A DNA stretch of 64,000 nucleotides from Bdellovibrionota bacterium. GTDB taxonomy: Bacteria > Bdellovibrionota > UBA1018 > CAIPTA01 > JAALKR01. The stretch lies in the NCBI GenBank assembly GCA_965207455.1, contig CBDBMJ010000003.1, forward strand, positions 54,197 through 118,196, given 5' to 3'. The notes below the pieces were generated by a model. That model was not told where the DNA came from. It searched no databases and was given only the letters and a program-made list of their open reading frames with translations. The first letter of the stretch is position 1, and each line of letters starts with the position of its first letter. Below are positions 8,186 to 22,215 of this stretch, piece after piece. A program made the translations under genes and the position numbers.

Positions 8186-9402
8186 TAGCTACTCCAGCGA
8201 GTGTGGGCAATATCCAGTAGCCTTTGAGCAATTTCTTCCTTGGAGGCTTTCGGTAAAAACGTATGGGAAGCATTATTTTCAAAAACATATAGCTCGTTGG
8301 TATCCACATCAAAGCCAATGTCGCTTCTACTCACGTCGTTTAAAGCAATAAAATCCAAGCCCTTTGTTTTTAATTTATCCTGTGCTTTTTCCATTTGCTC
8401 TTTTTTTGTACCCACTTCTGCGGCAAATCCCATAAACACTTGCCCCGGCTTTCGCTTAGCTGTCAAAGAGGAAAGAATATCTTTTGCAGAATTAAGTTCC
8501 AGATTTAATGTTTCCTTGCGTGGAATTTTTCCTTTCTTTTCATCTTTCATTAAAAAATCGCAGACGGCGGCTGTGCTAAAAATTATATTGGCTTTGGGAA
8601 GGGCGCTAAGGGCTTGGGCTTCCATTTCATCGTTGGTTTCCACTTGAAATGTTTTTCCTTGCTCAAGCTTGGTATAGGCGGAATCTACTGGTCCGGATAT
8701 TAAGGTAACATGGGCACCCTGTTTTTCTGCTGCCCTAGCAATCATATAACCCATGCGACCACTGGATCGGTTTGTGAGAAAACGAACCGGGTCCAAATAA
8801 GTACGAGTGGGACCACTGGTAACTAAAACATGTACTCCCTTTAGGGGTTGTGATTCTAATTTCTCCGCAACCTTTTGGTATATCTCCATGGGTTCTGCCA
8901 TTTTACCCATACCCGTTTCCCCACAAGCTAAGTCTCCACTCACGGGTCCAATTTCTTCAACCTTGCGTGCCCGTAGTTTTTTTCTATTCTCTTGAGTAAT
9001 GGGTGCTTCCCACATGCGCACATTCATGGCAGGAGCCATAAAAATAGGTTTCGTGAATGCTAGGGCTTCGGTGAGAAGAGCATCGTCGCAAATTCCATGG
9101 GCGAGCTTTGCCATAAAATTTGCTGTGGCAGGAGCCACCACTAGGGCATCTCCCCATTCACAAAGGTCGATATGGGCAGTGGCAGACAGATCGTAACTCT
9201 GTTGGTCGCCTAGAGAACGAAGCACAGGATTATTGCTCAAGCTCTCCAACGTTAGTGGAGTAACAAATTGCTCTCCCTGCTTGGTTAGTATCACACGCAC
9301 ATTGGATCCATTTTTTACAAACAAGCGCACAAGCTCACAGGATTTATAGGCAGCAATTCCTCCCGTTATTCCTAAAATAATATTTTTATTAAGCAATGGC
9401 AT
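8185..9402 (-). CDS. coaBC: Bifunctional phosphopantothenoylcysteine decarboxylase/synthetase
   Basis: N-terminal flavoprotein ILGITGGIAAYKS and C-terminal DFP ligase domain; 405 aa. Confidence 0.9.
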   Translation of the reverse strand: MPLLNKNIILGITGGIAAYKSCELVRLFVKNGSNVRVILTKQGEQFVTPLTLESLSNNPVLRSLGDQQSYDLSATAHIDLCEWGDALVVAPATANFMAKLAHGICDDALLTEALAFTKPIFMAPAMNVRMWEAPITQENRKKLRARKVEEIGPVSGDLACGETGMGKMAEPMEIYQKVAEKLESQPLKGVHVLVTSGPTRTYLDPVRFLTNRSSGRMGYMIARAAEKQGAHVTLISGPVDSAYTKLEQGKTFQVETNDEMEAQALSALPKANIIFSTAAVCDFLMKDEKKGKIPRKETLNLELNSAKDILSSLTAKRKPGQVFMGFAAEVGTKKEQMEKAQDKLKTKGLDFIALNDVSRSDIGFDVDTNELYVFENNASHTFLPKASKEEIAQRLLDIAHTRWSS

Positions 9403-10165
9403 ACAAACCCTCTAACGTTAGGTTGGGTTCAAAGTGGGTAACGGACTGAGATGTTCCCTCTAACAGATACCCAAATCCACCTGTGGCAATCACGGGGCAA
9501 TCCTGGGGAAAGTTCTTTTCTTTACGAATAGCTTCCACCATACCGTCTACCATAAAAGCAAACCCATGAATGGCTCCACTACTCATGGCAGTTTTCGTAT
9601 CATGGCCCACAACGGGAAGTTCTCCCGACGATGGAGTGAGGGCAATGGGTCCAAGGAGTGCGGTTTTTTGTACCAAAGCGTTCATGGAAATTCCCACACC
9701 TGGGCTAATAATACCTCCCATATATGCAAAGCAATTTTCATTTTTCCCAATAATGTCGAAGGTAGTAGCCGTGCCTGCGTCCACAACAATTGCTGGTGCT
9801 CCAAAACGCAAAGCTCCCTGAGCATTGGCCATTCGATCAGCACCCAAGATAGCAGGGTTGGGTAATTGTATTTCAAAGGACCATGGACTGCTTTCTTTGG
9901 CTATCACTAGGGGAATACTCAGTTCATGGAACAGTTGGCTCCAAGTGGACTCCAGCGCTGGAACCACGGAAGCAAGGACTGCTTTTTCAAGCTGCTTCTC
10001 TAGAGAGTGTTTCCTACGGGAAAGGTTTGTTTCCAAGTAGGTGAAAAGCTCATCAGCATAGGCATGGCGATTGCTTTGTATGTGGAAAGTATGAAGCTTT
10101 CCATCGGACTCGAATAAGCCAAATGTTGTGCGTGAGTTGCCGATGTCAATAATGAGTTTAGCCAT
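9389..10165 (-). CDS. coaX: Type III pantothenate kinase
   Basis: MAKLIIDIGNSRTTFGLF start, ASKHA fold; 258 aa. Confidence 0.85.
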   Translation of the reverse strand: MAKLIIDIGNSRTTFGLFESDGKLHTFHIQSNRHAYADELFTYLETNLSRRKHSLEKQLEKAVLASVVPALESTWSQLFHELSIPLVIAKESSPWSFEIQLPNPAILGADRMANAQGALRFGAPAIVVDAGTATTFDIIGKNENCFAYMGGIISPGVGISMNALVQKTALLGPIALTPSSGELPVVGHDTKTAMSSGAIHGFAFMVDGMVEAIRKEKNFPQDCPVIATGGFGYLLEGTSQSVTHFEPNLTLEGLYAIA

Positions 10166-10770
10166 TATTTTTTACCTCTATTTTCATTTCTACTTTCATA
10201 TTTGGCTTCATTTTTCTTGCTATTCTTTTTTTTCTTTTCAACTTTGACTTCGGGCTTGGGTTTTGGTTTCTTATCTGGATAGTTAATTTTGTAGATAACG
10301 GGAACGCCCAGTACTTTATTTCTTATGGGTAGGAGTACAACGCTAATGCCTTGATTTATTTTTTTTAAAGAGGGGGGGGAGCTCTTTTTTCGAAGTATGG
10401 ATCTTACCATGGGTTTAAGCTCTGTGGGCCAATGGGCCACGAATTTCTTCTCAGAGAGATTTACCCAAAATTTAACATTATATTCTTTTTTATTGACATA
10501 GACTTGTCCCTCTATGCTGGATTTTTTTACGGTGGGGAACTTTTTATTATTGTCAAGTAAGAAAACACTCATTCCACTTCCTCTAATGAGTAACTCGGTT
10601 AGGAAGGTGCCTGCGGATCGAAGTTGACCACCCCTGGGGCCTACGTTTCTCCCTTTACTTTTTTGGGTATTGGAGGCTTTGGAGGTTTTTTGAGCCAACG
10701 ATGGGGGAGCTATGAGGAGAATCGCCAAGGAAAGGAACAGAAGAGAACTTTTTTTAATTTGTTTTTTCAT
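10165..10770 (-). CDS. Secreted lysine-rich hypothetical protein embedded in the pan/coa operon
   Basis: Signal peptide MKKQIKKSSLLFLSLAILLIAPPSLA; KPKPKPEVKVEKKKK tail; no family recognised. Contains a G8 tract. Confidence 0.45.
   Translation of the reverse strand: MKKQIKKSSLLFLSLAILLIAPPSLAQKTSKASNTQKSKGRNVGPRGGQLRSAGTFLTELLIRGSGMSVFLLDNNKKFPTVKKSSIEGQVYVNKKEYNVKFWVNLSEKKFVAHWPTELKPMVRSILRKKSSPPSLKKINQGISVVLLPIRNKVLGVPVIYKINYPDKKPKPKPEVKVEKKKKNSKKNEAKYESRNENRGKK
10372..10379. repeat. Homopolymeric G8 tract (C8 on coding strand, encodes SPPS) inside secreted-protein gene
   Basis: Read directly: agggggggga. Confidence 0.8.
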
Positions 10771-10771
10771 C

Positions 10772-11572
10772 CTATCCCTTGACTTGTTTTACATAATCCG
10801 AGGCAGCTCCACTGACTATTTTTTTCAAATTGCAGTAGGGCGTAGCAAACTTTGGCGTGGGACCAAAGGTATAGCCTAAGATATCATTTACCACGAGCAC
10901 CTCTCCATCACAAACAGTTCCTGCTCCGATCCCAATGGTCGGAATTTTTAATTCTTGGGTAATTTGTTCCGCTGCTGTGGGATGTAGGCACTCCAGTACC
11001 AAAGAAAAACATCCAGCTTTTTCTAAAGCTAGGGCTGATTGCACCAAGAGGTCCACATCTTTTTCCGTTTTTCCGTGGATATAAAACCCTCCCATTTGGT
11101 GTATGGACTGAGGAGTGAGACCAATGTGACCCATCACTGGGATCCCTGTCTCCACACAGCGACGGGTGAGTTCTAGAATATGGGGGGAGGCGCCCTCCAT
11201 TTTTACGGCCTGTACTCCACCCTCGCCCAAACAACGACCACTACTGATCAGACCCGTCTCCACAGAACTTTGATAGCTCATAAAAGGAAGGTCTGCGATA
11301 ACAAACGCTCGCTCACTTCCTCGAACCACGGCTGCTGAGTGTTCTATAATAGTATCCAAACGAACCTGAAGGGTATTTTCTTGACCGTAGACCACGTTGC
11401 CGATGGAGTCGCCCACGAGGAGAATATCCACACCTGCATCGTCTAGGCATTGGGCTGTCATCACATCGTAGGCTGTTAGGGCAGCTAGGCGTTCCTTGCC
11501 CTTCATGGCTTGGAGGGAGTGGAGTGTGTGTCGTTTTGTTTTGTTTTGTACGCTACTCATATTTTGTTCCAT
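10772..11572 (-). CDS. panB: 3-methyl-2-oxobutanoate hydroxymethyltransferase
   Basis: LAALTAYDVMTAQCLDDAGVDILLVGDSIGNVVYG core; 266 aa. Confidence 0.9.
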   Translation of the reverse strand: MEQNMSSVQNKTKRHTLHSLQAMKGKERLAALTAYDVMTAQCLDDAGVDILLVGDSIGNVVYGQENTLQVRLDTIIEHSAAVVRGSERAFVIADLPFMSYQSSVETGLISSGRCLGEGGVQAVKMEGASPHILELTRRCVETGIPVMGHIGLTPQSIHQMGGFYIHGKTEKDVDLLVQSALALEKAGCFSLVLECLHPTAAEQITQELKIPTIGIGAGTVCDGEVLVVNDILGYTFGPTPKFATPYCNLKKIVSGAASDYVKQVKG

Positions 11573-12479
11573 TGGTAGTTGGGTTCCTATAGCGTTCCGT
11601 TCCTTTCTTGCTAATCGGTGATCCCGATTCTATTTCTTTAGAAAACTCTTGGGCAAAAACTCCAGACTCAATATCTTCCCAAAGTTTTTCCATTCGGGGT
11701 TGAAGTTCCTTTTGGGGAAGTAAATATTCTGAAGCTCGTATGCCGCCGAACCTAGCGGTGCTACTTACTTTTTCTAACATTCCAGCCACACCCCATTCTA
11801 CCATCATATCCACGATGAGTTTGGTTTCATGCAAGCACTCATAGGTGGCTAGTGTCGGATTGATTCCTTTTTTCACAAGGTGGCGTATGCTGGCATCCAG
11901 TAGGTGGGGGATTCCCCCGCATAATAGGATTTGTTCGCTGAAAAGATCGGCGTTGGTTTCCTCGGAAAAGGTGCTTTCCAGCAAGCCCACTCGATGGCAG
12001 CCCAGTCCTGTGGCAATTGCGCGGGCAAGTTCCCAAGAATTACCCGAGGCATCCTGAGATACAGCAAGCACGCCCATCACTCCTGAACCAGCCACATAGT
12101 TTTCTCGGAGTTTTTTACCGATACCTTTCGGGGCAACGAGAATGGAGTTGTCTTGGGGAGAGAGGGGAAGTTTCCCGTACGTTACGGCAAAGCCGTGGGC
12201 AAAAACAAAGGTTCGGGGTGAGCCATCTTTGCAGTGGGTTTGGAAAAAAAGTGGAATCTTTTCATCTGGAATTAAAATGGCTATGGGGTGGAGCGCTCGA
12301 TTTTCCAGTGCCTCCTCTAGGGAGCAGGTGGCAAAGCCATCTTTTTGAGCTCGCTCAATGGAGGTTCCCTTGTTTAATGCATTGCGCCCAGAGACAGTCA
12401 CGTCCCATCCTGAGTCTTTTAGGTTTTTTGCCCATGCTTGCCCTTGATTTCCGTAGCCAATAAGTGTAATTTGTGCCAT
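11553..12479 (-). CDS. Ketol-acid reductoisomerase (IlvC)-like NADPH reductase, in the operon position of ketopantoate reductase
   Basis: IGYGNQGQAWAKNLKDSG Rossmann motif; AHGF...APKG...GLLESTFSEETNADLFSEQILLCGG...YECLHETKLIVD matches the KARI knotted domain. 308 aa, slightly shorter than class I KARI. Confidence 0.7.
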   Translation of the reverse strand: MAQITLIGYGNQGQAWAKNLKDSGWDVTVSGRNALNKGTSIERAQKDGFATCSLEEALENRALHPIAILIPDEKIPLFFQTHCKDGSPRTFVFAHGFAVTYGKLPLSPQDNSILVAPKGIGKKLRENYVAGSGVMGVLAVSQDASGNSWELARAIATGLGCHRVGLLESTFSEETNADLFSEQILLCGGIPHLLDASIRHLVKKGINPTLATYECLHETKLIVDMMVEWGVAGMLEKVSSTARFGGIRASEYLLPQKELQPRMEKLWEDIESGVFAQEFSKEIESGSPISKKGTERYRNPTTNGTKYE

Positions 12480-12505
12480 GTGACTAATTACTAGCAGGAT
12501 TTTCC

Positions 12506-12913
12506 ATGTTACTCAACTTTATGAAAGCAAAAATTCACCGACTTCGGGTTACTCAAGCCAATCATGAGTATGAGGGGAGTGTGACCATTGATGAGCTCCT
12601 GATGAAGGAGGCAGGCATATTGCCTTATGAGCAGGTGCAGGTCTATGACGTGACCTCTGGGAGTCGTTTTGTGACGTATGCGATGGAGGGCCCTCCTGGA
12701 AAAGGGGATTGCTGTGTGAATGGAGCAGCCGCACGTTTGGTGGCTCTAGGGGATGAGGTAATTATCATGAGTTATTGCTTATTAACCCAAGAGGAGGCTT
12801 TGGATTACCAGCCCAAGGTGGTGCTTATGAATAAAGACAATTCTATTAAAGACAGTTTTACGGTTCGAGGGGGACATAAGGAAGTGGGCGCACCGTTGGT
12901 GGAAAGAAAGTAA
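12506..12913 (+). CDS. panD: Aspartate 1-decarboxylase (pyruvoyl-dependent)
   Basis: MLLNFMKAKIHRLRVTQANHEYEGSVTID with the G-S self-cleavage site; 135 aa. Confidence 0.9.
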   Translation: MLLNFMKAKIHRLRVTQANHEYEGSVTIDELLMKEAGILPYEQVQVYDVTSGSRFVTYAMEGPPGKGDCCVNGAAARLVALGDEVIIMSYCLLTQEEALDYQPKVVLMNKDNSIKDSFTVRGGHKEVGAPLVERK

Positions 12914-12917
12914 GCCT

Positions 12918-14039
12918 ATGGAGTGGGTGGTATTTCTTGTTCTTGCTGCTCTAACTGTTCTAGTAGCTGCTCTTGTATTTATTTTTCGTTCTAACAGTAG
13001 GGATAGGGATTTAGCCCTGATCGCGCTTCAGCAAAACATGATGAAGCAAATGCAAGAGGATGGTGTGAGTTTGCGAAAAGAGTTTAGCCAGTCTTTGCAC
13101 GAGTCCATGCAAAATATTTCCACAGTGCTGGGTGGGGTGAGTACTCAGCTCAATAAGCGTATGGAGGAGACAAACACTACTTTGGGTCGCACTCAAAATA
13201 ATGTGGGAGATCGGCTCGACAATGCGGCCAAAGTTATCCACAACCTACAAAATCAATTGGGAACTTTGGAGGAGTCCAGCCGACGTATGTTGGATATAGG
13301 TCAGGGGCTTAAAAATTTAGAGAATGTGTTGAGAAATCCAAAAATTCGAGGAAACATGGGCGAGTTTTTTCTAGAGGATCTTCTCAGACAAGTTTTGCCC
13401 ACGGGTAGCTACGGCATACAACATTCCTTTCGATCAGGTGTTACCGTAGATGCTGTGGTGTATGTGGGTGATAATCTGCTACCCATCGACTCCAAGTTTC
13501 CTGTGGAGAGTTTTGTGCGTTTTTTGACTATTCCCGATGATGAACCCGACAAAAAGAAAAAAGAATACCGGGCTTTTATTGCCACCATCAAACACCACGC
13601 CAATGACATTGCTAAAAAATATATTTGTCCCGATGAAAACACCTTTGATTTTGCTTTTATGTATATTCCTGCGGAGAATGTATACTACGAGACTATTATT
13701 CGTAACGACGGTACAATCAATTCAGACTCCCTATACTCCTGGTTACTACAAAAGAAAGTAATTCCCGTATCTCCTAACTCTCTATATGCTTACCTGCAAG
13801 TAATACTGTTGGGTTTAAAGGGCATGAAGATTCAAGAAAGTGCAAAAGAGATTCTCCAGGGCTTAGACCAGCTCTCCGGCGATCTCCGCCGCTTCCAAAG
13901 CGACTACTCCGTATTGGGAAAGCACATAAAAAATGCAGGCAATACTTTCGAGGGTGGAAATAAATATTTGGAAAAATTTCAAGGTCGTTATGACCAGCTT
14001 CTACAAACGAAGGAGTATCGTGGAATTACCAAAGAATAA
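12918..14039 (+). CDS. rmuC: DNA recombination protein RmuC
   Basis: N-terminal TM and coiled-coil; NMGEFFLEDLLRQVLP and PIDSKFP motifs of the RmuC family. Confidence 0.8.
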   Translation: MEWVVFLVLAALTVLVAALVFIFRSNSRDRDLALIALQQNMMKQMQEDGVSLRKEFSQSLHESMQNISTVLGGVSTQLNKRMEETNTTLGRTQNNVGDRLDNAAKVIHNLQNQLGTLEESSRRMLDIGQGLKNLENVLRNPKIRGNMGEFFLEDLLRQVLPTGSYGIQHSFRSGVTVDAVVYVGDNLLPIDSKFPVESFVRFLTIPDDEPDKKKKEYRAFIATIKHHANDIAKKYICPDENTFDFAFMYIPAENVYYETIIRNDGTINSDSLYSWLLQKKVIPVSPNSLYAYLQVILLGLKGMKIQESAKEILQGLDQLSGDLRRFQSDYSVLGKHIKNAGNTFEGGNKYLEKFQGRYDQLLQTKEYRGITKE

Positions 14040-14082
14040 ATCCTCCATACGTTCCTGGTCCTACTTTATTCTCTACTGTGTG

Positions 14083-14391
14083 ATGATTGTGTTTTTCACT
14101 CATAAGAAACCACTGGATCCCAGTTCCTACCCTTTTCCAAAGTATGGGGAATTGGTCCATTGTGTGGAATACTTTTTCTTTGCCATACTATTGCAGAAAG
14201 CCCTGCTTCGCAGTGAGGTGCCCAGGAGTTTTTGGTATGCCTTTGGGGGCACGTCCATCTTTGCTGTGGGAAACGCCCTGTATCTCTCCTTTTTCTCCAA
14301 CGGTGGCGCTTGGAGCACTACGGATTATATGGCCGTTGGGCTGGGAATAGGGCTTGCCATGTTTCTCTTAAATAGTATTTATCGCACCTAG
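14083..14391 (+). CDS. Small integral membrane protein (possibly VanZ-like)
   Basis: ORF 13933..14391 overlaps rmuC by 100 nt; internal ATG at 14083 avoids the overlap. Three predicted TM helices. Family assignment weak. Confidence 0.3.
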   Translation: MIVFFTHKKPLDPSSYPFPKYGELVHCVEYFFFAILLQKALLRSEVPRSFWYAFGGTSIFAVGNALYLSFFSNGGAWSTTDYMAVGLGIGLAMFLLNSIYRT

Positions 14392-14597
14392 GGTCCCAGG
14401 TCCGTGAGCATTTCCACCCCACCCACATCCGTTAGGTACACATGACCCGCGGGGCACACATGCTGTTCCACTTTTCTGGAAACATCATCGGGACGAATCC
14501 CACGAATCACAGGTATTGAGGAAAAATTGGTCTTACAGATGGGACAATCCAATGCTCGTTCCAAGGGATGCTTGGGTAGGGAATGTGCTTTTGTCAT
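14388..14597 (-). CDS. Small zinc-ribbon-like hypothetical protein (CPICK...CPAGH)
   Basis: 69-aa ORF with CxxC...C...H spacing; downstream of the paralog pair on the same strand. Confidence 0.35.
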   Translation of the reverse strand: MTKAHSLPKHPLERALDCPICKTNFSSIPVIRGIRPDDVSRKVEQHVCPAGHVYLTDVGGVEMLTDLGP

Positions 14598-14707
14598 GCC
14601 ATTACCATAACATTAATTATATATATTTAAAAGCATCACTTATTTAAATATTTGAGAAACAAAAAAGCCCTCTCTATTTCTAAAGAAGGCTTTTCTATTA
14701 AGAAGAT

Positions 14708-14804
14708 TTTGTAATAAATTAAAATTTATGTATTTAAATTTTTTGGTTAGCTGCCGGTTGCATTTTTTGATGAGCAATCATCAGCATCAGTTGATGCGAA
14801 AGGC
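14708..14804. repeat. 97-bp direct repeat copy 1 (3' end of CDS + 3' UTR)
   Basis: Identical to 15524..15620 at the nucleotide level. Confidence 0.85.
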
Positions 14805-15502
14805 TCTTTATAGCTCATGCCTCGTTCTTTGAGGCTGGTGTAGTCGTCATTTCTTTTCAATTCAGTACAGAGGTTATTTAACTTCTGTACTTGTTTCGCT
14901 AACCTTTTAGCTTCTGCTTCCGCTTCTTGAGCTTCAGTTATTGCTTCTTCAACTTCTTTTTCTCCAATCAAATTTTTAAATCTTTTTTCCTTGATTACAA
15001 GCGCCAGCTCAGACTCTACTCTTGTACTTACTTGAGAACCTATTTCATCTTCTATATTCGTCTTATATCTATCAAGCAGATCAGCGCCAAAACCCTTAGT
15101 ATATCCAGAAAAAATACAAGTAAATATACCTTCTTTAAGTAATTTATAATTAGTCAAGAGAACATCTGATCTAGTCGAGACTCCACGGAGTATAAATCTT
15201 GAAATTATACTTGGCTCTTCTGTTGCCTCACATCTAGAATAATTTTCAGAGATATAAGTTGCGATATGAGACTTTAGCTTTTCCCTGATCACAGTATCTG
15301 TGGAAGAAATAGTTTTTTGATATTCCGCTGTCTTACTTTCCGCATCTCTAACTCTCTCTTTTGCACGTATGAATTTCTCCTCAGCAGAAACAGGTTTCAC
15401 CGATGAATCATCACTCTCAGGATTCAGCGCATGTCCAATTGTTGGTGATGCTATGGAAAGCGCTATTGCTGTTATCATTACTATATTTTTTGTTTTTATC
15501 AT
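14747..15502 (-). CDS. Secreted coiled-coil protein, paralog A (conserved C-terminal ...PFASTDADDCSSKNATGS)
   Basis: Signal peptide MIKTKNIVMITAIALSIASPTIGHA. Clear homology to 15563..16240. Last 19 codons and 3' UTR identical to paralog B. Confidence 0.6.
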   Translation of the reverse strand: MIKTKNIVMITAIALSIASPTIGHALNPESDDSSVKPVSAEEKFIRAKERVRDAESKTAEYQKTISSTDTVIREKLKSHIATYISENYSRCEATEEPSIISRFILRGVSTRSDVLLTNYKLLKEGIFTCIFSGYTKGFGADLLDRYKTNIEDEIGSQVSTRVESELALVIKEKRFKNLIGEKEVEEAITEAQEAEAEAKRLAKQVQKLNNLCTELKRNDDYTSLKERGMSYKEPFASTDADDCSSKNATGS

Positions 15503-15523
15503 TTTTTTATCCTCAGGGAGTAG

Positions 15524-15620
15524 TTTGTAATAAATTAAAATTTATGTATTTAAATTTTTTGGTTAGCTGCCGGTTGCATTTTTTGATGAGCAATCATCAG
15601 CATCAGTTGATGCGAAAGGC
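15524..15620. repeat. 97-bp direct repeat copy 2
   Basis: Identical to 14708..14804. Confidence 0.85.
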
Positions 15621-16240
15621 ACTTTATAGTCTAGACGTTGATCTAGGATAATAGCGATGTCATCTCTTATTGCTCTATCAAGGAGGTTCTCTAATTTTAG
15701 AAGTTGCATAGCCAATTGAATAGCTTTTTCTTCTGCATATGCAAATTTTCTTTCTGCATCTAGATCTTCTTCCGCACTTATAGCATCGTTTATATCCTTT
15801 TTTTCAGCTTCTACTTTTGTACTTACTTGAAGCTCTATTTCATCACCCAGCATTTCAAAATACGTTTTATTTATACTACCTTTAGTAAATCCATGAAAAA
15901 TGCATCTCGATATTCCTATTTCGATTCCTTCATTACGATCAACTGGTATGCTTCTATTGTTCAAATAACGATAGTCCGCACCCATTATCCGAATATCGTT
16001 TATTTCTTCTTCCTTGCACCTAGTATAATTTTTAGAAATATAAGATGAGAGATGAGACTTTATTTCTTTATTTTTAGAATCAAGTTCCACTTGATATTCC
16101 ACAATCACTTCATTTAAAACCGCGGTCCTCTGCTTAGAGTTCTTTGACAAATCATCATCAGAATATCCAATTGTTGGTAAGGCTATGGCAAGTACCATTG
16201 CTGTTATCGCTATTATATTTTTATTGCTTGTTTTCATCAT
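15563..16240 (-). CDS. Secreted coiled-coil protein, paralog B
   Basis: Signal peptide MMKTSNKNIIAITAMVLAIALPTIGYS; shared YTRC...CIFHGFTKG core and identical C-terminus. Confidence 0.6.
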   Translation of the reverse strand: MMKTSNKNIIAITAMVLAIALPTIGYSDDDLSKNSKQRTAVLNEVIVEYQVELDSKNKEIKSHLSSYISKNYTRCKEEEINDIRIMGADYRYLNNRSIPVDRNEGIEIGISRCIFHGFTKGSINKTYFEMLGDEIELQVSTKVEAEKKDINDAISAEEDLDAERKFAYAEEKAIQLAMQLLKLENLLDRAIRDDIAIILDQRLDYKVPFASTDADDCSSKNATGS

Positions 16241-16449
16241 TATTCTTATCTCCTTTATTCATGTTAGTTATATTTGTTAATGCAAGGGACGTGCCAGAAT
16301 AGCTTTAAAAGGGTATAATTTAAAAAAGCTTTATTTTCAGTCGCTTAGCCGTTAATCTTATGCCTGCTGATACAAAGGCTACAAGAAATCAAGCCCTGGA
16401 TTGACTAAAAAATAAACAATGTCGAGGAATTTTACAGTAACCAGTAAAT

Positions 16450-17553
16450 TTATGTGTTTGGTTGAAGAGTGAGTACTTCTGCTTCTATCCAGGAGCCTGC
16501 CCCTGTTTGGGTTATGAGTCGGGGGTTGTGGAGTTGAAACATGGTGGGTTCTTCGGCAAAGGCAAGAGGGTATTCCGTTATGGTCACTAGGGCTTTGGTG
16601 AGTTTATAGGAAGGAGGCAAAAATCCTCCGATGGTGTCCACCAATCGGGACTGCACACAACGCTTCCAAAGGGCAGGGCCTCTGTGAATAGCTGTTAAAT
16701 AAAATCCAAAATTTCGCAGTTGACGAAGAATGGGTGCTACATCCATATAATTCTCTTTGATTGGGATTTGAACCACATGTATGCCAGCATTGATCATTTG
16801 CTTGCGCTTTTCTTCTTGGGCGGGAGCGTCCCCGATAAATACAATGGTTTTTTCCTCTCTATTTTGCACCAAGTGGGATTCCATCGGTATGGCCCCAAAG
16901 GGGTCCAGCACACATACCCAGTCTTGGAGGGAAACAATACTATCTTCCCGATAGGCTGCTTCCACGTCGAAAAGAAGAATGTCGTAGAAAAATGGAGTGC
17001 TCTTATTGTGCACACTCACCCGTACTATCTTTTTCTCATCGTCTATCTTTAAATCCCAAATTAGTTTTATTTGTGGGAGAAAGCGGTTGATGGATTTTTT
17101 GTAATCTTCATACAAGAGTTGGCAAAGGTGAGCTTCCTCTCCGTCGGCAATAATTACCTCTAAACCGTATTGCTCTAAACTTTGTATACCCTTGCCGCTA
17201 ATACTTTGTGTGGGATGGAGAGTACCAATTAACACTCTGGGAATGCCCATGTTTCGTATGCTTTCCGTTACTGGAGGAATGCGCTGGTAGGTGGGGTTGG
17301 GCTCCAAACTTAAGTATAGGGAAAGCTCCTCTGGCCTGGAGTGATCGTCGATGGTGTTCCACGCTTGGACCACACCATCTTCCTTGTCGCCCGGTTGAAA
17401 AACCGCTTTAGCCAGCACAGTACTTCCTCTGGCAATAATTGCGGACCAGGTGCTCTCCAAGGGTTGACCTATTTTTACTGGCGGTCGTCGACCCTCCAAA
17501 ACCAACTTATGGGTTTGGAGTAACATCTTTCTATCTAAATTCTCAAAGGTCAT
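16450..17553 (-). CDS. RibD-family (deaminase-like + RibD_C reductase-like) protein with degenerate deaminase active site
   Basis: N-half aligns to the CDA fold (…YLSLEPNPTYQRIPPVTESIRNMGIPRVLIG… versus …YVTLEPCxHxGRTPPCADALIEAGVARVVVA…) but lacks the HAE/PCxxC zinc ligands. C-half matches RibD_C topology. Confidence 0.45.
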   Translation of the reverse strand: MTFENLDRKMLLQTHKLVLEGRRPPVKIGQPLESTWSAIIARGSTVLAKAVFQPGDKEDGVVQAWNTIDDHSRPEELSLYLSLEPNPTYQRIPPVTESIRNMGIPRVLIGTLHPTQSISGKGIQSLEQYGLEVIIADGEEAHLCQLLYEDYKKSINRFLPQIKLIWDLKIDDEKKIVRVSVHNKSTPFFYDILLFDVEAAYREDSIVSLQDWVCVLDPFGAIPMESHLVQNREEKTIVFIGDAPAQEEKRKQMINAGIHVVQIPIKENYMDVAPILRQLRNFGFYLTAIHRGPALWKRCVQSRLVDTIGGFLPPSYKLTKALVTITEYPLAFAEEPTMFQLHNPRLITQTGAGSWIEAEVLTLQPNT

Positions 17554-17572
17554 GGGATTAGGAAATCATTCC

Positions 17573-18637
17573 TTAAGCAGGCTCTTCCACAAGAGCGCGC
17601 ATTTCCTGTTCCACATGGTATGTCTGTGGTTGGGTGGCATCCTCTAAAATCGGAGATATGCCAACTCCCGGAATATGCTTTCCTGCAATCATGCGAGGGC
17701 GCACTTGAAGAGAATAAAAAAGTTCGTCACATACCCTGCGAATAAGATGCTCAGAAAAATTGCACACCTCAGTGTCCTCGTTGATACAAATAAAGCGCCC
17801 TGTTTTTTTTACGGATTTGCGAATCGACTCCCAGTCGTAGGGATAAATAGTTCGTAGATCAATAACCTCGTAATGAATACCCTCTTGAGCCAATTTTTTT
17901 GCTATCCCCTCCACTATGGGCATGAGCCTTCCCCAAGCCACCACTGTGGCCCTGTCTCCCTCTTGGCAGGTTCGTGCCTTACCAATGGAAATATTGGGAT
18001 CCGAAAGCCCTTGGGGCCAACGGGGCTTCCAATTCATTTTCTTTTTTTCGTTCACAGGCATATCGATCATGTCGCGAAGTTGCTTTTCATCATCAGGCTC
18101 ACCCGGTATTTTCTTCTCCCCCTTACTCCGCAAAAGCGCCTTGGGCTTTAAGTACATAACAGGGTTGGGATCTTTAATGGCCGCTAACATTAAGCCGTAA
18201 GCATCGTAAGCGTTGGAGGGCATAACCGTCTTCCAACCAGGGATCTGTACCATTTTAGAATCAAAGGAATGGGAATGATAAATAGAACCGTGAATACCAC
18301 TTCCAACGGGAGTCATCACCACAATGGGGCAAGTATAGTCGCCATTACTGGCCCAACAAGCATTGCCCGCAAGTTTTAATAGGTCGATGGTATTAAAAAT
18401 ATAATCACAGAACTGAATTTCTGCCACACAACGGCTTCCTGCATAGCCCAGACCAGTGGCCATGCCAATCACACCTCGCTCGTCCAAAGGACTGTTCCAA
18501 CTTGTCTCCAACCCTTGGGTGGCTGTAAATACTCCACCTAGTGGAGGACCCACGTCTTCCCCAAAAACGTCCTTTAAATCCAAGTTTTTTTCTCCGTACG
18601 CCAACGCCATTCGGATTGCCTGTGCAATAGTCGCCAT
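17573..18637 (-). CDS. 2-oxoacid dehydrogenase E1 component beta subunit (transketolase-like)
   Basis: GEDVG...GGVF...RVIDTP-like N-terminus and AEIQF, LRTIYPYD motifs. About 35-aa Lys-rich insertion relative to typical E1-beta. Confidence 0.8.
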   Translation of the reverse strand: MATIAQAIRMALAYGEKNLDLKDVFGEDVGPPLGGVFTATQGLETSWNSPLDERGVIGMATGLGYAGSRCVAEIQFCDYIFNTIDLLKLAGNACWASNGDYTCPIVVMTPVGSGIHGSIYHSHSFDSKMVQIPGWKTVMPSNAYDAYGLMLAAIKDPNPVMYLKPKALLRSKGEKKIPGEPDDEKQLRDMIDMPVNEKKKMNWKPRWPQGLSDPNISIGKARTCQEGDRATVVAWGRLMPIVEGIAKKLAQEGIHYEVIDLRTIYPYDWESIRKSVKKTGRFICINEDTEVCNFSEHLIRRVCDELFYSLQVRPRMIAGKHIPGVGISPILEDATQPQTYHVEQEMRALVEEPA

Positions 18638-18640
18638 AAA

Positions 18641-19735
18641 TTAACCCCTTCGTTTATTCTTCCATTGCTCTTTGGCAAGTTTTATAAAGTCCACACCAAT
18701 GGACTCAGCTAAGGTGTCCCTACCTCGATCATTATTCTCTTGAGCATAGACATGATCGAAAATACTCTCAGGTGTGGGATGCGTTTCTTGTCGTACTTTT
18801 TTCCAACTCTCACTAATTTCCTTCGTCCATTTTTCCCAAACCTTTTTCGCGTCCTGAGAGGAAAGTATGCTCTGCTTTTTTAATTCCTTTTCAAACCCCT
18901 CAATAGGACAAGGGTCTGTGGTTCGGTTAGCACCACTAGCAGACGAATGACCATAAAGACGACTCACACAAAACTCCAAAAGATAGGGCTTGCGCTCCTT
19001 GCGCACATATTCCATGGCCTGGCTTAAAGCACCCCAAGCCTCCCATACATTGTTTCCGTCGACAGTGAGGGAAGGAATTCCAAAGGCTTTTCCCCGGTCG
19101 GAAATTTTTCTCTCTCCGTGTTGACCGTCGTAAGTGGTGGAAATACCCCAACGGTTATTATTCACAATTATAAGTAGAGGCAAAGGAGCCGCTGGTCGAC
19201 TCGCCCAAATAAGAGCACTGGCAAAATCACCCTCAGCTGTGCCCGCATCTCCCCCATTGGCAATGGTAATACCCCTACTTCCCCTCTGAGCATGAGCCGT
19301 TCCAATAGCCTGGGTATATTGGGGCTCAATACAAGAAGAGATGGGAGGAATATTCCACTCCCGCTTGCTATAATGATTTACAAAGTTTCGACCCCCAGAA
19401 TAGGGATCCGTGGAAACACAGGCCATTTGGCGAATAGTGTCTGCTGGGTCCGCTCCCATTGCCATTAAAATACCGCTGGATCGATAGTGCAGATGAAGGA
19501 AATCATGATCCAGACCAGAACCCTTATCGAGTAAAAGCCCAAGGGGAATGGAACTTGCCTCTTCTCCCGGCCCCCCAATCCAAAAAAATCCCTCGCCTGA
19601 TTTCCCCATAAGAATGATGCGCTCTTCCAATACCCTGGTCTTTACCATGAGGCTGTGAATTTGTAGCAAGGTTTTTGGGGGTATGGCTGACTGAACTGAT
19701 CGCACAGCCGCTGGAGAAAGTACTTTTCTGGTCAT
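18641..19735 (-). CDS. 2-oxoacid dehydrogenase E1 component alpha subunit (TPP-binding)
   Basis: TPP motif GDAGTAEGDFASALIWAS...IIVNNNRWGIST; 364 aa. Confidence 0.8.
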   Translation of the reverse strand: MTRKVLSPAAVRSVQSAIPPKTLLQIHSLMVKTRVLEERIILMGKSGEGFFWIGGPGEEASSIPLGLLLDKGSGLDHDFLHLHYRSSGILMAMGADPADTIRQMACVSTDPYSGGRNFVNHYSKREWNIPPISSCIEPQYTQAIGTAHAQRGSRGITIANGGDAGTAEGDFASALIWASRPAAPLPLLIIVNNNRWGISTTYDGQHGERKISDRGKAFGIPSLTVDGNNVWEAWGALSQAMEYVRKERKPYLLEFCVSRLYGHSSASGANRTTDPCPIEGFEKELKKQSILSSQDAKKVWEKWTKEISESWKKVRQETHPTPESIFDHVYAQENNDRGRDTLAESIGVDFIKLAKEQWKNKRRG

Positions 19736-19860
19736 AGGTTTGCCCTCATAATAACTTTGTTCCCATAATAACTTTGCCCCCTCCAGCTATTGGCAGTAGA
19801 CTCTATTAGATGCACTTCTATGAAGTGTGACTAGTCGAGTCTAGGAGTAAAAAGGATATC

Positions 19861-20796
19861 ATGAAGTGGAAATTTCCTCCAGCTTTAGCGTCGGATCAAG
19901 CAATCGGGGTGGTGGCACCCTCGAGCTTTGTGGATAATACATTCTTGCAATCAGGGCAAAAAAAATGCAGTCAGCTGGGCTTAAAACTCCACTATGACGA
20001 ATCCATATTGCAGAAAAAATTGTTCTTCGCAGGCGAAGACTCTCAAAGGGCAGAGAATTTTATTGCTGCCCATACTAGCGAGACCAATAATATGCTTTGG
20101 TGTGCACGAGGAGGCTACGGGGCTGCTCGTATTCTTCCCCTATTGGAGGAAAAAAAATTCCATACAACACTCCAAGAAAATCCAAAACTCCTTATTGGTT
20201 ACTCGGACTCCACAGCTCTCTTTACCTATTACCTACAAAGGGGAGGAGTTTCCTGTTTACACGCTCCCTTAATGGCAGCTCCCAGTTGGTTAGATACGAC
20301 AGAAAAAGATTCTACCGACTTTCTCAATATCCTTCATGGAACCACAGGTCTGGGCAAAGCCTCCCATACCGCAAAATGGAATACCCTTTTTTTAGGAAAC
20401 CGTGGGACAGCTGAAGGAATTCTCATGGGAGGAAATATTAGCGTGCTATGTTCTTTAGTGGGTACGCCTTGGCAGCCCAAGTTTCAAGGAGGGATTGTGC
20501 TACTGGAAGATTGTAACGAACCCCCTTACCGGCTTCACCGTATGCTTACCCAATTGGATCAGGCCGGTTGTTTCGACGGAATACGAGGAGTAATTCTCGG
20601 CGACTGCACCCACGGAGTGCCCAAAGGCACTACCTGGGAAACGGTCTTTTCCGACATACTCGTTCCCAAATGTCTCGTGCTTCATGGTGCTCCCGTGGGA
20701 CACAGCAAGCGCAACAGCCCTCTCCCACTAGGGGTGCGAGCTAGAATCAACTCCCAAGGAAAACTGGAGTTATTGGAGCAGGTGGTAGGGCTCTAG
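19861..20796 (+). CDS. ldcA: LD-carboxypeptidase (S66 family)
   Basis: VVAPSS...LW...GG...LIGYSDSTAL nucleophile-elbow region; 311 aa. Confidence 0.75.
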   Translation: MKWKFPPALASDQAIGVVAPSSFVDNTFLQSGQKKCSQLGLKLHYDESILQKKLFFAGEDSQRAENFIAAHTSETNNMLWCARGGYGAARILPLLEEKKFHTTLQENPKLLIGYSDSTALFTYYLQRGGVSCLHAPLMAAPSWLDTTEKDSTDFLNILHGTTGLGKASHTAKWNTLFLGNRGTAEGILMGGNISVLCSLVGTPWQPKFQGGIVLLEDCNEPPYRLHRMLTQLDQAGCFDGIRGVILGDCTHGVPKGTTWETVFSDILVPKCLVLHGAPVGHSKRNSPLPLGVRARINSQGKLELLEQVVGL

Positions 20797-20806
20797 GATT
20801 ATTAAG
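20760..20806. repeat. Imperfect ~45-bp direct repeat, left copy (covers last 12 codons of ldcA)
   Basis: aaaactggagttattgg[agcaggtg]gtagggctctaggattatta versus 22216..22256 aaaactggagttattgg[g]ggtaggactctaggattatta. Confidence 0.75.
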
Positions 20807-21431
20807 AGACCCAAAATTTCTGTAATTCATCAATAAAGCTCTGGTAAGCCTCTTCAAAGCTAGGTGCTTCTTTGATTCCTGAAACAGCACTTGACCAACC
20901 GATCTTCAGAAGGCTCAAATCTATGGTTTTTAAATGCTGGATAAGATCTTTAGGAATAACTGTTTCTCGATAATTGAAACAAGCTTCAAGAGAACGAAAT
21001 AAATTGTTTTTTTCAGCTCTTGGAAGAAAGTAGGATAAGTCAAATATATCCTTTGAGCGTGAATTGTACTTTCCAAGATCCACTAGTGCATGAATTTTTT
21101 CTGCAATCATTGTTTCTATAGGATAAACAAACCAAGTCAGTTCATTTTCTCCAATCAGCTCTGGTGTTTTAATTTGAAGAGGAGAAGGAACAATAGGATC
21201 ACCAATTCCTAGGTCAAATTGAATAATCTGGAACTTTTTTATATTTTTAGGTATCTCGCCAATCCCAGCACGAAATACTTGTCGAACTCCACCATACTCG
21301 CCCTGAGTTTTAAGATCTATTTCTTTTTCAAACCTAAACCAAACAGCATCATTAAAAGTTTTTTCTACGACTACCTTAACAGCATCAAGATCAATTGTAT
21401 ACCTGCTGGATTTATAAATACGTAGTCCCAC
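20802..21431 (-). CDS. abiEii: AbiEii/DUF1814 nucleotidyltransferase toxin (type IV TA / abortive infection); N-terminus ambiguous
   Basis: IETMIAEKIHALVDLGKYNSRSKDIFDL matches the AbiEii signature. First canonical start is GTG at 21431, but the in-frame upstream 33 codons encode ...LVFKGGYVGL (the conserved GG nucleotide-binding motif) with no ATG/GTG/TTG; in-frame stop at 21531. Confidence 0.6.
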   Translation of the reverse strand: MGLRIYKSSRYTIDLDAVKVVVEKTFNDAVWFRFEKEIDLKTQGEYGGVRQVFRAGIGEIPKNIKKFQIIQFDLGIGDPIVPSPLQIKTPELIGENELTWFVYPIETMIAEKIHALVDLGKYNSRSKDIFDLSYFLPRAEKNNLFRSLEACFNYRETVIPKDLIQHLKTIDLSLLKIGWSSAVSGIKEAPSFEEAYQSFIDELQKFWVS

Positions 21432-21557
21432 ATAGCCACCCTTGAAAACAAGAGATTTGTAGAGTGTTGCATTTGATGTAATTCTGACAACTAAGATTAT
21501 TTTTTTTAGCCCAATTTGAAAGCTTCTGTTTTATCGAGATGCTCTGATTCTTTATAC

Positions 21558-22124
21558 TCATAAAATGATGGCCTCCCAATATTTATCAAAGGTTTTTTTT
21601 AGGTTTAGTGCAGTTGCCATTTTTCCAAGTTTCGTTTCTGTAGTAAGGTCATCTTTAAGAGCACGTCTTGTTGCATTTATCGCAATTCTAAGACCGAGTT
21701 TCGTTGCAAATTTTAGTGATTCAATAAGTGTGCGCTCAATATTTGTGATTTTAAAGCATCCTCGATCTTCGATTCCTTTAGTAAAAGGTGTGCTTGTTCT
21801 AAGACATTTATATTTTTTGCGTTCATTTTTTTTTGCTTGAGGTACGATAAGCCAAACTTGCTGAGGAGCCTGATCAATGAGTCCGTAATGAAAAAGAGCA
21901 GAGAGCCCACTTACGGCAGCATCTGGTCCAAAATACTTGTATGCCATAGCAAAATCCAGCTCTTCTGGATCAATGGAAGACTTTGGATGCATATAAAGAC
22001 CACGATCAATTCGTAGGAGCTTTTCCTGCTTCACCCACCTTGAAAGCGTGTGTCGCCCAATGCCCGCGCTGCTTTGAGCTTCTTTCGCATTGAATATTCC
22101 AAGTTTTTTTAGTTTGCTAGGCAT
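21558..22124 (-). CDS. abiEi: AbiEi antitoxin / transcriptional regulator
   Basis: N-terminal wHTH LGIFNAKEAQSSAGIGRHTLSRWVKQEKLLRIDRGLY typical of AbiEi_4; 188 aa; directly upstream of abiEii. Confidence 0.65.
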   Translation of the reverse strand: MPSKLKKLGIFNAKEAQSSAGIGRHTLSRWVKQEKLLRIDRGLYMHPKSSIDPEELDFAMAYKYFGPDAAVSGLSALFHYGLIDQAPQQVWLIVPQAKKNERKKYKCLRTSTPFTKGIEDRGCFKITNIERTLIESLKFATKLGLRIAINATRRALKDDLTTETKLGKMATALNLKKTFDKYWEAIIL

Positions 22125-22136
22125 CTTATTCTATTA

Positions 22137-22182
22137 TGCACCAAATCCGACATTTTTCAACAAAAATGTCGGATTTGGTGCA
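22137..22182. promoter_or_regulatory. Perfect 21-bp inverted repeat with 4-nt loop, 13 nt upstream of abiEi start (candidate AbiEi operator and/or terminator of upstream lipoprotein gene)
   Basis: tgcaccaaatccgacattttt-caac-aaaaatgtcggatttggtgca; arms are exact reverse complements. Confidence 0.55.
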
Positions 22183-22215
22183 TATACGATAGCAGCCATG
22201 GAGCATAAGTACCTA

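What the first reader, a model, noticed from the sequence alone, without database searches (positions are those of the whole stretch)
14708..16240. Tandem secreted paralogs that have diverged everywhere except a nucleotide-identical 97-bp 3' module (last 19 codons + 3' UTR)
Genes 14747..15502 and 15563..16240 encode signal-peptide, coiled-coil proteins that are obviously homologous but substantially diverged (for example CIFSGYTKGFGADLLDRYK versus CIFHGFTKGSINKTYFEM). Yet 14708..14804 and 15524..15620 are identical. This stretch covers the C-terminal tag (K)(V/E)PFASTDADDCSSKNATGS, the stop codon and 39 nt downstream, including an AU-only hairpin (AAAUUUA-N6-UAAAUUU). Such mosaic conservation implies either recurrent gene conversion or cassette exchange at the 3' end, or strong constraint on a C-terminal sorting or modification signal plus a 3' RNA element. 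The locus is low-GC and sits next to a small zinc-ribbon gene. The arrangement resembles constant-tail/variable-body surface-protein families, or a secreted effector pair with a shared export tag.
Basis: seen in the sequence. Interest (0 to 1): 0.7.

Follow-up and report, generated by a model that had tools for sequence, protein, structure and literature searches.

The report
Tandem orphan genes sharing homogenised tail
Two neighbouring, fast-diverging genes for exported helical proteins, found in only one bacterial genome, share a 106-base end that was most likely copied recently from one gene to the other by ordinary recombination; this is a clear but unremarkable case of partial concerted evolution.

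Summary
Window 14708-14813 and 15524-15629 are a 106-nt direct repeat with one mismatch, and the first 97 nt are identical. The repeat covers the last 21 codons, the stop and 39 nt downstream of two minus-strand paralogs that are otherwise 39% identical in protein and 58% in DNA. It is the only repeat of 30 nt or more in the 64-kb window. The longest identical run is 97 nt, against 15 nt in the gene bodies and 36 nt at most in 100,000 column shuffles.

The genes form a two-gene operon in a low-GC 1.85-kb insert (GC3 0.25 against 0.43-0.50 in the host genes). The insert lies between a ribD-like gene and a zinc-ribbon gene, which are directly adjacent in all nine Bdellovibrionota/Oligoflexia relatives examined. 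The proteins have no detectable homologue in 1.84 billion representative sequences, carry signal-peptide-like N-termini, and are predicted to be helical with a disordered tail.

Because synonymous and non-coding positions are identical while body dS is about 0.8, selection on a peptide tag cannot explain the tract. Recent gene conversion at the end of a tandem duplication unit is the best explanation. attC, DGR, sorting-tag, terminator and Rfam readings all failed their tests. Interest is low to moderate.

The parts
14598..16449 (.). Lineage-specific low-GC insert (1852 bp) between the zinc-ribbon gene start and the ribD-like gene stop
   Evidence: GC is 0.32-0.36 against about 0.43-0.47 in the flanks. 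GC3 of A and B is 0.25-0.26 against 0.43-0.50 in neighbouring genes. In nine relatives (L001-L007, L081, L082) the ribD-like and zinc-ribbon genes are only about 10-135 bp apart and no A/B homologue is present.
15563..16240 (-). Gene B (225 aa): upstream paralog with a signal-peptide-like N-terminus (residues 1-27, 16160-16240), a helical body and the shared tail
   Evidence: ORF, with an AAGGAG ribosome-binding site 10-15 nt before the ATG. AlphaFold2 on mature B gives pLDDT 66.9, helices 2-63, 75-91 and 98-176, and a disordered last 22 residues. No family was found in Pfam, NCBIfam, PHROGs, PADLOC or PDB.
14747..15502 (-). Gene A (251 aa): downstream paralog with a signal-peptide-like N-terminus (residues 1-25, 15428-15502), a helical body and the shared tail
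   Evidence: ORF, with a GAGGA ribosome-binding site in 15503-15523. A is 39% identical to B. The only matches among 5.8e9 clustered proteins and 1.84e9 representatives are A and B themselves.
15524..15629 (-). Module copy 2: the last 21 sense codons of B, the stop and 39 nt of the B-A spacer
14708..14813 (-). Module copy 1: the last 21 sense codons of A, the stop and 39 nt downstream
   Evidence: The coding part has GC 0.44 and the 39-nt part 0.10. Tail GC3 is 0.29, like the gene bodies and unlike the host genes.
15503..15523 (-). Unique 21-nt segment carrying A's ribosome-binding site; inferred 5' start of the second duplication unit
   Evidence: Sequence. Homology between the two units begins about 9-10 nt upstream of each ATG (blastn block 52-132 / 200-287).
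14658..14699 (-). Terminator-like hairpin ending the B-A transcript (19-bp stem, flanked by A- and U-tracts)
   Evidence: The RNA fold gives -22.7 kcal/mol, z = -5.0, with 0 of 200 shuffles folding as well. Terminator-type weak Rfam matches fall on the same spot. No comparable hairpin lies between B and A.
14388..14597 (-). Flank, not part of the feature: conserved 69-aa zinc-ribbon gene (CPxC...CPxGH)
   Evidence: It is 49-63% identical to the gene directly downstream of ribD-like in nine relatives.
16450..17553 (-). Flank, not part of the feature: ribD-like gene, the last conserved gene before the insert

Best explanation
A low-GC 1.85-kb insert, specific to this lineage, in a Bdellovibrionota/Oligoflexia-type chromosome carries a two-gene operon (B then A, minus strand). 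The two genes are tandem paralogs encoding exported, mostly alpha-helical proteins with no detectable relatives.

The pair arose by tandem duplication of a unit of about 0.8 kb. The unit runs from the ribosome-binding site, about 21 nt (at least 10 nt) before the ATG, to 39 nt past the stop codon. The gene bodies have since diverged quickly (dS about 0.8, dN/dS about 0.7). The last 106 nt of the unit was made identical again recently by non-reciprocal homologous recombination (gene conversion) between the copies.

The 3' edge of the identity (14708 / 15524) is simply the duplication junction; beyond it the sequences were never homologous. The 5' edge (14813 / 15629) marks where homogenisation stops. 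It coincides with the end of the last predicted helix and the start of the disordered tail.

Shown directly: the tract and its statistics, the insertion, the orphan status, and the layout of ribosome-binding sites and terminator. Inferred: the conversion itself, the extent of the duplication unit, protein export and co-transcription.
For: The tract has 1 difference in 106 nt and none at about 53 near-neutral sites, giving a 95% upper bound on divergence of 0.057. The gene bodies have pS 0.49, dS 0.79 and dN 0.57. The longest identical run is 97 nt, against 15 nt in the bodies and at most 36 nt in 1e5 shuffles, and the border is sharp.

Homology between the units starts about 10 nt before each ATG and ends exactly 39 nt after each stop, as expected for a head-to-tail duplication unit. 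The repeat has exactly two copies and is the only repeat of 30 nt or more in 64 kb. Tail GC3 (0.29) matches the gene bodies, so the tail belongs to the insert rather than to the host.

The body is not fully saturated: 55 of 80 conserved residues keep the same codon, against 39.4 expected at saturation (z = 3.8). This indicates genuine common descent with uneven block ages (block dS 0.13-0.46 against saturated stretches).

The tract border coincides with the boundary between the helical body and the disordered tail. Concerted evolution of gene ends in bacterial paralogs is well documented, for example the 5' and 3' regions of the H. pylori bab genes (PMC4552749), and across prokaryotes generally (PMC6053082).
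Against: Today there is no flanking homology on either side of the tract. The inner side is 43% identical and the outer side is unrelated. A fresh conversion would therefore have to start and resolve inside about 100 nt, close to the minimum for RecA-type exchange.

Only one genome carries the genes, so the defining test of concerted evolution (paralogs more alike than orthologs) cannot be run. Conversion cannot be told apart from capture or replacement of one gene body by recombination anchored in the tail. Read-level support for the assembly was not available.

dN/dS from Nei-Gojobori counting on an AT-biased, gap-rich alignment is approximate (bootstrap 0.49-1.02).
Confidence: 0.6

Rival explanations
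1. Cassette capture or exchange. The 106-nt module acts as a homology handle. A circular or incoming DNA carrying a diverged gene body plus the module integrates by a single crossover in the resident module, or replaces a body using the tail and the signal-peptide region as anchors. The result is module-body-module, so the bodies diverged before they became neighbours.
For: The topology is exactly repeat, then a 719-bp segment (RBS plus A body), then repeat, which is the product expected from a Campbell-type single crossover. Both borders are abrupt rather than graded. The 5' signal-peptide block is also unusually similar (83-87% nt, dS 0.13), as expected if the gene ends serve as anchors. The whole locus is compositionally foreign and its proteins have no detectable homologue.
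Against: No third copy, silent cassette or alternative allele was found in the window, genome, metagenome, viral, phage or plasmid collections. Homology extends a few nt upstream of both ATGs, which fits a simple duplication unit equally well. No population data are available.
Confidence: 0.2
2. Constraint at the nucleotide level. The module is a functional RNA or DNA element, such as an mRNA-stabilising or processing structure, an sRNA target or a protein-binding palindrome, and is kept invariant by selection in both copies.
For: The same three small hairpins form in both contexts: two adjacent hairpins in the coding part and an 8-bp AU hairpin in the 3' part. Identity extends into non-coding sequence.
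Against: The fold z-scores are only -1.9 to -2.2, and 6-7 of 200 shuffles fold as well. The coding palindromes follow trivially from the GAT (Asp) and TCA (Ser) codons being reverse complements of each other. No Rfam match reaches a gathering score. Selection rarely holds 97 consecutive bases invariant, loops included. No promoter-like or terminator-like site lies on the gene strand in the module.
Confidence: 0.07
3. Assembly artefact. The two genes are alleles or copies from different strains or molecules, joined wrongly through a shared 97-106-nt repeat.
For: The source is a single assembly (contig of 503,972 bp), and reads cannot be inspected. Exact repeats are classic sites of mis-joins.
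Against: The repeat is shorter than typical reads and shorter than the largest k-mers of common assemblers, so single reads should span it (general knowledge, not tested). Gene A has its own unique 21-nt junction with the module (15503-15523), unlike the sequence upstream of B, so A cannot be an allele at B's position. The copies differ at one base inside the 106 nt, so they are not a collapsed duplicate.
Confidence: 0.05
4. Selection on the peptide. The tail PFASTDADDCSSKNATGS is a C-terminal sorting, modification (Cys, or the N-A-T sequon) or partner-binding tag, and purifying selection is the cause of the conservation.
For: Both proteins have signal-peptide-like N-termini and the same 18-residue tail. 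The tail contains the third conserved Cys and an N-x-T motif.
Against: All 14 synonymous sites and 39 non-coding bases are also identical, which peptide selection cannot produce. The tail is hydrophilic and acidic, lacks a transmembrane or basic segment and is predicted disordered. No sorting-domain model matches. No other ORF in the window carries the tail. The tail may still have a function, but that would not explain the observation.
Confidence: 0.03
5. An integron-like cassette array without an integrase (CALIN), with the module acting as an attC site at the 3' end of each cassette.
For: The layout of ORF-module-ORF-module, with the module 3' of each ORF and a length of 97-106 nt, lies within the attC size range.
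Against: No pair of R'' (RYYYAAC) and R' (GTTRRRY) core sites 50-160 nt apart occurs on either strand of 14550-16500. Neither strand folds into the long imperfect hairpin of an attC site; only three short local hairpins form. No integrase or other recombinase lies within about 7 kb.
Confidence: 0.02

Closest known systems
Concerted evolution / gene conversion of gene ends in bacterial paralog families, for example Helicobacter pylori babA/babB/babC (PMC4552749) and the prokaryote-wide survey PMC6053082
   Same: Paralogs have diverged middles while a terminal segment is kept near-identical at the DNA level by intragenomic homologous recombination. The proteins are exported or surface-exposed.
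   Different: Here the homogenised tract is very short (106 nt, against several hundred nt in bab). The copies are adjacent in one operon rather than at distant loci. No orthologs exist to show that the paralogs are more alike than orthologs. The family occurs in a single genome.
Integron gene cassettes and CALIN arrays (ORF plus a 3' attC site)
   Same: The layout is an ORF followed by a conserved element of about 100 nt, repeated in tandem, in compositionally foreign DNA.
   Different: There are no attC core sites and no attC-type hairpin. No integrase is nearby. The module is mostly coding sequence.
Antigenic-variation families with conserved ends flanking a hypervariable centre (Anaplasma msp2/p44, Neisseria opa/pilS); comparison from general knowledge
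   Same: The gene ends are conserved (5' signal-peptide block 83-87%, 3' tail 100%), the centre is fast-evolving, and dN/dS is near 1.
   Different: There are only two copies, both complete with their own ribosome-binding site. There is no expression site or silent-cassette arrangement. The host is a probable free-living or predatory bacterium, not a pathogen under immune pressure.
C-terminal protein-sorting tags (LPXTG, PEP-CTERM, GlyGly-CTERM, T9SS C-terminal domain); definitions from NCBIfam/TIGRFAM
   Same: Signal-peptide-bearing paralogs share a C-terminal tail.
   Different: The tail has no signature motif, no hydrophobic helix and no basic cluster, and no model matches it. Identity extends to silent and non-coding positions.
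Diversity-generating retroelement VR/TR pairs
   Same: A repeat of about 100 nt sits at the 3' end of a gene with a near-identical second copy nearby.
   Different: There is one mismatch rather than many adenine-specific ones. Both copies are the in-frame ends of full paralogs. No reverse transcriptase lies within about 7 kb.

Membership tests
Gene conversion / concerted evolution between paralogs | A tract whose identity, including synonymous and non-coding sites, significantly exceeds that of the rest of the paralogs | tested here: met
   97 identical nt against a longest run of 15 nt in the bodies; 0 of 1e5 shuffles reach it. dS is 0 in the tract against 0.79 in the bodies.
Gene conversion / concerted evolution between paralogs | Paralogs within a genome are more similar in the tract than orthologs between genomes | not testable with these tools
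   No ortholog or other homologue exists in any collection searched.
Tandem duplication | Head-to-tail units whose homology starts and ends at the same relative positions, with a single novel junction | tested here: met
   Homology runs from about 10 nt upstream of each ATG to 39 nt after each stop. The junction is at 15523/15524.
Integron cassette / attC (CALIN) | R'' (RYYYAAC) and R' (GTTRRRY) core sites bracketing a site of 57-141 nt | tested here: not met
   A regex scan of 14550-16500 on both strands found no R''/R' pair 50-160 nt apart.
Integron cassette / attC (CALIN) | The single-stranded site folds into one long imperfect hairpin | tested here: not met
   ssDNA folds of both strands give only three short local hairpins.
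Integron cassette / attC (CALIN) | A match to the attC covariance model (IntegronFinder) | not testable with these tools
   The model is not in Rfam or in the tool set.
Diversity-generating retroelement | A reverse transcriptase gene close to the TR/VR pair | tested here: not met
   Pfam and NCBIfam annotation of ORFs from 8185 to 23004 shows no RT. The rest of the window was not scanned.
Diversity-generating retroelement | The TR and VR copies differ at many positions, all adenines in the TR | tested here: not met
   There is only one mismatch in 106 nt.
C-terminal sorting tags (LPXTG, PEP-CTERM, GlyGly-CTERM, T9SS CTD) | A signature motif followed by a hydrophobic helix and basic residues, or a CTD beta-sandwich; a match to the family HMM | tested here: not met
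   No NCBIfam or Pfam match covers the tail. The tail is acidic and hydrophilic and predicted disordered.
C-terminal sorting tags (LPXTG, PEP-CTERM, GlyGly-CTERM, T9SS CTD) | The same tail on several otherwise unrelated exported proteins of the genome | tested here: inconclusive
   None was found in the 64-kb window. The rest of the genome is not available. The tail-only protein search failed technically.
Dispersed repeat element (REP/MITE type) | Many dispersed copies; terminal inverted repeats or a strong palindrome | tested here: not met
   There are only the two tandem copies in the window. No terminal inverted repeats are visible in the sequence. The core is absent from the metagenome and viral collections. 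The genome-wide count is not testable.
Rho-independent terminator (for the AU hairpin) | A G+C-rich stem followed by a U-run | tested here: not met
   The stem is A-U only and the terminator scan does not call it. A strong terminator-like hairpin lies downstream at 14658-14699.
Known RNA family (Rfam 15) | A score at or above the family gathering threshold | tested here: not met
   The best hits score 22-26 bits against thresholds of 43-100.

The most novel reading that the evidence does not exclude
The 106-nt module is the homology handle of a recombinase-independent cassette array. Fast-evolving genes for exported proteins with no detectable homologue are added, deleted or swapped at this site by RecA-type crossovers within the constant 3' module, through an excisable 816-bp circle. 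This would give a population-level hypervariable secreted-protein locus in a Bdellovibrionota-type bacterium, working like an integron but without attC sites or an integrase.
Probability: 0.1. Interest if true: 0.6.

Novelty: new member of a known kind. Interest (0 to 1): 0.25.

Why it matters
If the main reading holds, this is a clean, small example of partial concerted evolution. A structured, rapidly diverging body (dN/dS about 0.7) is uncoupled from a disordered tail that stays inside the recombination regime. The locus also shows a protein family with no detectable homologue being born or acquired inside a conserved operon. That makes it useful as an illustration and as a caution that identical tails need not be functional tags, but it does not change current understanding. 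It would matter more if strain comparisons showed different gene bodies attached to the same module (a cassette system), or if the tail turned out to be a new export or modification signal in Bdellovibrionota, where many secreted proteins remain uncharacterised.

Tried and rejected
Searches for homologues of A and B:
- The word-indexed 5.8e9-cluster search found only A and B.
- The exhaustive profile search of 1.84e9 representatives found only A and B, plus three spurious repeat-protein hits.
- Pfam, NCBIfam, PHROGs, PADLOC and PDB sequence searches gave nothing above threshold.
- tblastn against phage and plasmid records gave nothing.
- Back-translated pattern scans of genome, metagenome and viral contigs gave nothing. 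These scans confirm hits with the whole protein, so a gene sharing only the tail would have been discarded.

Searches for the module and the tail:
- An exact 30-nt module core scan of metagenome and viral contigs gave 0 hits.

Source genome:
- Exact-protein look-ups of A, B and E1-beta found no contig on record.
- The source genome is not in the species-representative collection, so a genome-wide copy number of the module could not be obtained.

Structure:
- AlphaFold2 on A gave pLDDT 35.6 and was unusable.
- Mature B gave pLDDT 66.9 but no Foldseek PDB match better than E = 1.
- The AFDB library was unavailable.

Readings rejected: attC site, DGR, sorting tag, MITE, Rfam family, promoter in the module, and the AU hairpin as a terminator.

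A third partial copy of the motif AAATTTATGT at 16446 (family D5) is a 10-nt match with E = 4.7 and was dismissed as chance.
Full report
**Observation**

The region was read directly and its ORFs listed. Two minus-strand ORFs sit head to tail: B at 16240..15563 (225 aa) and A at 15502..14747 (251 aa). Each has a Shine-Dalgarno-like sequence (AAGGAG and GAGGA).

The repeat finder reports one 106-nt direct repeat, 14708-14813 / 15524-15629, at 99% identity. The first 97 nt are identical, and no further copy lies in the window even with three mismatches allowed. The single difference (14805 T / 15621 A) changes Glu (GAG) in A to Val (GTG) in B.

The tract covers Y-K-(E/V)-PFASTDADDCSSKNATGS, the TAA stop and 39 nt downstream. 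The proteins are 39% identical overall.

**Is it more than chance?**

- On the codon alignment plus the 39 downstream bases, 455 of 708 aligned positions are identical.
- The gene bodies are 58% identical and their longest identical run is 15 nt.
- The observed run of 97 nt was never reached in 100,000 column shuffles (maximum 36).
- The 30 nt just inside the tract are only 43% identical, so the border is abrupt.
- Nei-Gojobori counting gives pS 0.49, dS 0.79 and dN 0.57 for the 200 aligned body codons. It gives 0 synonymous and 1 non-synonymous difference in the last 21 codons.
- With no differences at about 53 near-neutral sites, the tract's divergence is below 0.057 (95% bound), more than ten-fold below the body.
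- The repeat is the only one of 30 nt or more in the whole 64-kb window.

**Context**

PDH E1-beta (17573..18637) finds Bdellovibrionota/Oligoflexia metagenome-assembled genomes as its closest relatives, with a best identity of 76-78%. In L001-L007 the gene order is LD-carboxypeptidase (opposite strand), E1-alpha, E1-beta, ribD-like, zinc-ribbon. The last two genes are separated by only about 30-135 bp.

The two nearest ribD-like homologues in the 5.8e9-cluster protein database (40-42% identical) show the same adjacency, with gaps of 10 and 110 bp. In the window, 1852 bp (14598-16449) separate these two genes. This segment has GC 0.32-0.36 against about 0.43-0.47 around it, and GC3 of 0.25-0.26 against 0.43-0.50.

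The pair is therefore a compositionally foreign insertion, specific to this lineage, into a conserved operon. The zinc-ribbon gene is an unrelated resident. No integrase, transposase or reverse transcriptase lies within about 7 kb. The neighbours are pantothenate/CoA genes, RmuC, PDH E1, an LD-carboxypeptidase and an AbiEii/AbiEi pair.

**The proteins**

No curated family matches either protein, and PDB sequence search finds nothing. The word-indexed search of 5.8e9 clusters returns only A and B. The exhaustive profile search of 1.84e9 representatives returns A, B and three repeat-inflated TPR-type hits that are spurious. Phage and plasmid tblastn searches are empty.

Despite having no detectable homologue, they look like real genes. 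In 33%-GC DNA two ORFs of 225-251 codons are unlikely by chance. All indels between them are in frame, and both have a ribosome-binding site.

The N-termini (MIKTKNIVMITAIALSIASPTIGHA / MMKTSNKNIIAITAMVLAIALPTIGYS) have the basic-hydrophobic-small layout of Sec signal peptides, with no lipobox Cys. This was judged by inspection; no predictor was available.

AlphaFold2 failed on A (pLDDT 35.6). On mature B it gave pLDDT 66.9, three long helices and a disordered last 22 residues. Foldseek against the PDB found nothing better than E = 1. Both proteins have a heptad-like segment just before the tail.

Body dN/dS is 0.72 (bootstrap 0.49-1.02), far above what is typical of conserved bacterial genes. 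One caveat is that AT-biased codon usage compresses dS. Even so, identical residues keep identical codons in 55 of 80 cases against 39.4 expected at saturation (z = 3.8), so the signal is not purely saturation. Divergence is patchy: the signal-peptide block has dS 0.13, two internal blocks have dS 0.42-0.46, and the rest is near saturation.

**The module as nucleic acid**

As RNA or ssDNA the module forms two adjacent short hairpins in the coding part and an 8-bp A-U hairpin in the 3' part. The z-scores are only -1.6 to -2.2. The coding palindromes are an automatic consequence of GAT (Asp) and TCA (Ser) codons being reverse complements.

No Rfam family approaches its threshold. No promoter-like or terminator-like site falls in the module on the gene strand. 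A strong terminator-like hairpin (19 bp, -22.7 kcal/mol, z = -5.0) lies immediately downstream of copy 1 at 14658-14699. Nothing comparable lies between B and A, so B and A are probably co-transcribed and terminated there.

No attC core-site pair exists, and neither strand folds like an attC site.

**Interpretation**

Identity at silent and non-coding sites, next to a body with dS of about 0.8, cannot come from selection on the peptide. It must reflect recent shared ancestry of that segment, meaning recombination.

The simplest model has three parts.

- First, the pair is a tandem duplication of a unit that runs from the ribosome-binding site to 39 nt past the stop. Homology is detectable from about 10 nt before each ATG.
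- Second, the outer edge of the identity (14708 / 15524) is therefore the duplication junction.
- Third, the inner edge (14813 / 15629) marks where homogenisation by gene conversion stops. This is also where the helical body ends and the disordered tail begins.

A plausible dynamic is that rapid, possibly diversifying, change in the body destroyed the homology needed for conversion there, leaving the tail as the last segment that still recombines.

The main rival is cassette capture or replacement, with the tail (and perhaps the signal-peptide block) as recombination anchors. It gives the same topology and cannot be excluded without other strains. Assembly error is unlikely for three reasons: the repeat is short, A has its own unique junction (15503-15523), and the copies differ at one base. 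It remains untested.

**Comparison with known systems**

The behaviour matches concerted evolution of gene ends in paralog families, such as the 5' and 3' regions of H. pylori bab genes exchanged by intragenomic recombination (PMC4552749) and the prokaryote-wide cases in PMC6053082. The arrangement superficially resembles integron cassettes, DGR VR/TR pairs and C-terminal sorting tags. Each of those failed at least one defining test here (see the membership table).

**Verdict**

The tag and RNA-element branches are not supported as causes of the identity.

The mechanism is of a known kind, while the gene family is new and so far confined to one genome. Interest is 0.25.

The most novel reading not excluded is a recombinase-free cassette array that uses the module as a homology handle. 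I give it about 0.1 probability.

Noticed in passing
window 20802-22124 (minus strand): An AbiEii toxin / AbiEi antitoxin pair (type IV toxin-antitoxin / abortive-infection system) lies in a second low-GC patch (GC 0.357 in 21001-22000), 4.5 kb from the A/B insert. Accessory DNA seems to accumulate around the PDH operon.
   Followed up: partly
window 14388-14597 and leftwards; L081 4494-5773; L082 3307-4487: In relatives the zinc-ribbon gene is followed by lipoyl synthase and further 2-oxoacid dehydrogenase genes. In the window it faces convergent VanZ-like and RmuC genes instead. There is therefore a synteny breakpoint at the zinc-ribbon gene in addition to the 1.85-kb insert.
   Followed up: partly
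L001 11350-11841 (minus strand); L082 1543-2043: Other lineages carry different small ORFs (163 and 166 aa, no Pfam hit on record for the L082 one) inserted between E1-beta and the ribD-like gene. This operon appears to take up small insertions repeatedly.
   Followed up: no
window 16450-17553 (minus strand): The ribD-like protein scores far below the RibD cut-offs (46.5 against 156 bits, with only a weak RibD_C match). It is nevertheless conserved directly after the PDH E1-alpha/beta genes and before the zinc-ribbon gene in nine relatives. This is an unusual and unexplained gene partnership.
   Followed up: no
window 8185-12913: A pantothenate/CoA cluster is present: coaBC, type III pantothenate kinase, a 201-aa ORF with no Pfam match (10165-10770, with a local GC dip to 0.36), panB, a ketol-acid-reductoisomerase-like gene and an ORF (12506-12913) that looks like panD (aspartate decarboxylase) from its translation but was not scanned against any family library.
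   Followed up: no
window 13933-14391 (+ strand): A 152-aa ORF with weak VanZ/DUF2238 similarity overlaps the 3' end of rmuC by 107 nt. Its real start is probably further downstream.
   Followed up: no
window 14747-16240, proteins A and B: Three Cys are conserved between the paralogs (A: C91, C129, C243; B: C75, C113, C217), so one is necessarily unpaired within a monomer. The one in the shared tail could form an intermolecular disulfide. The tail also contains an N-A-T sequon. This is speculation only.
   Followed up: no
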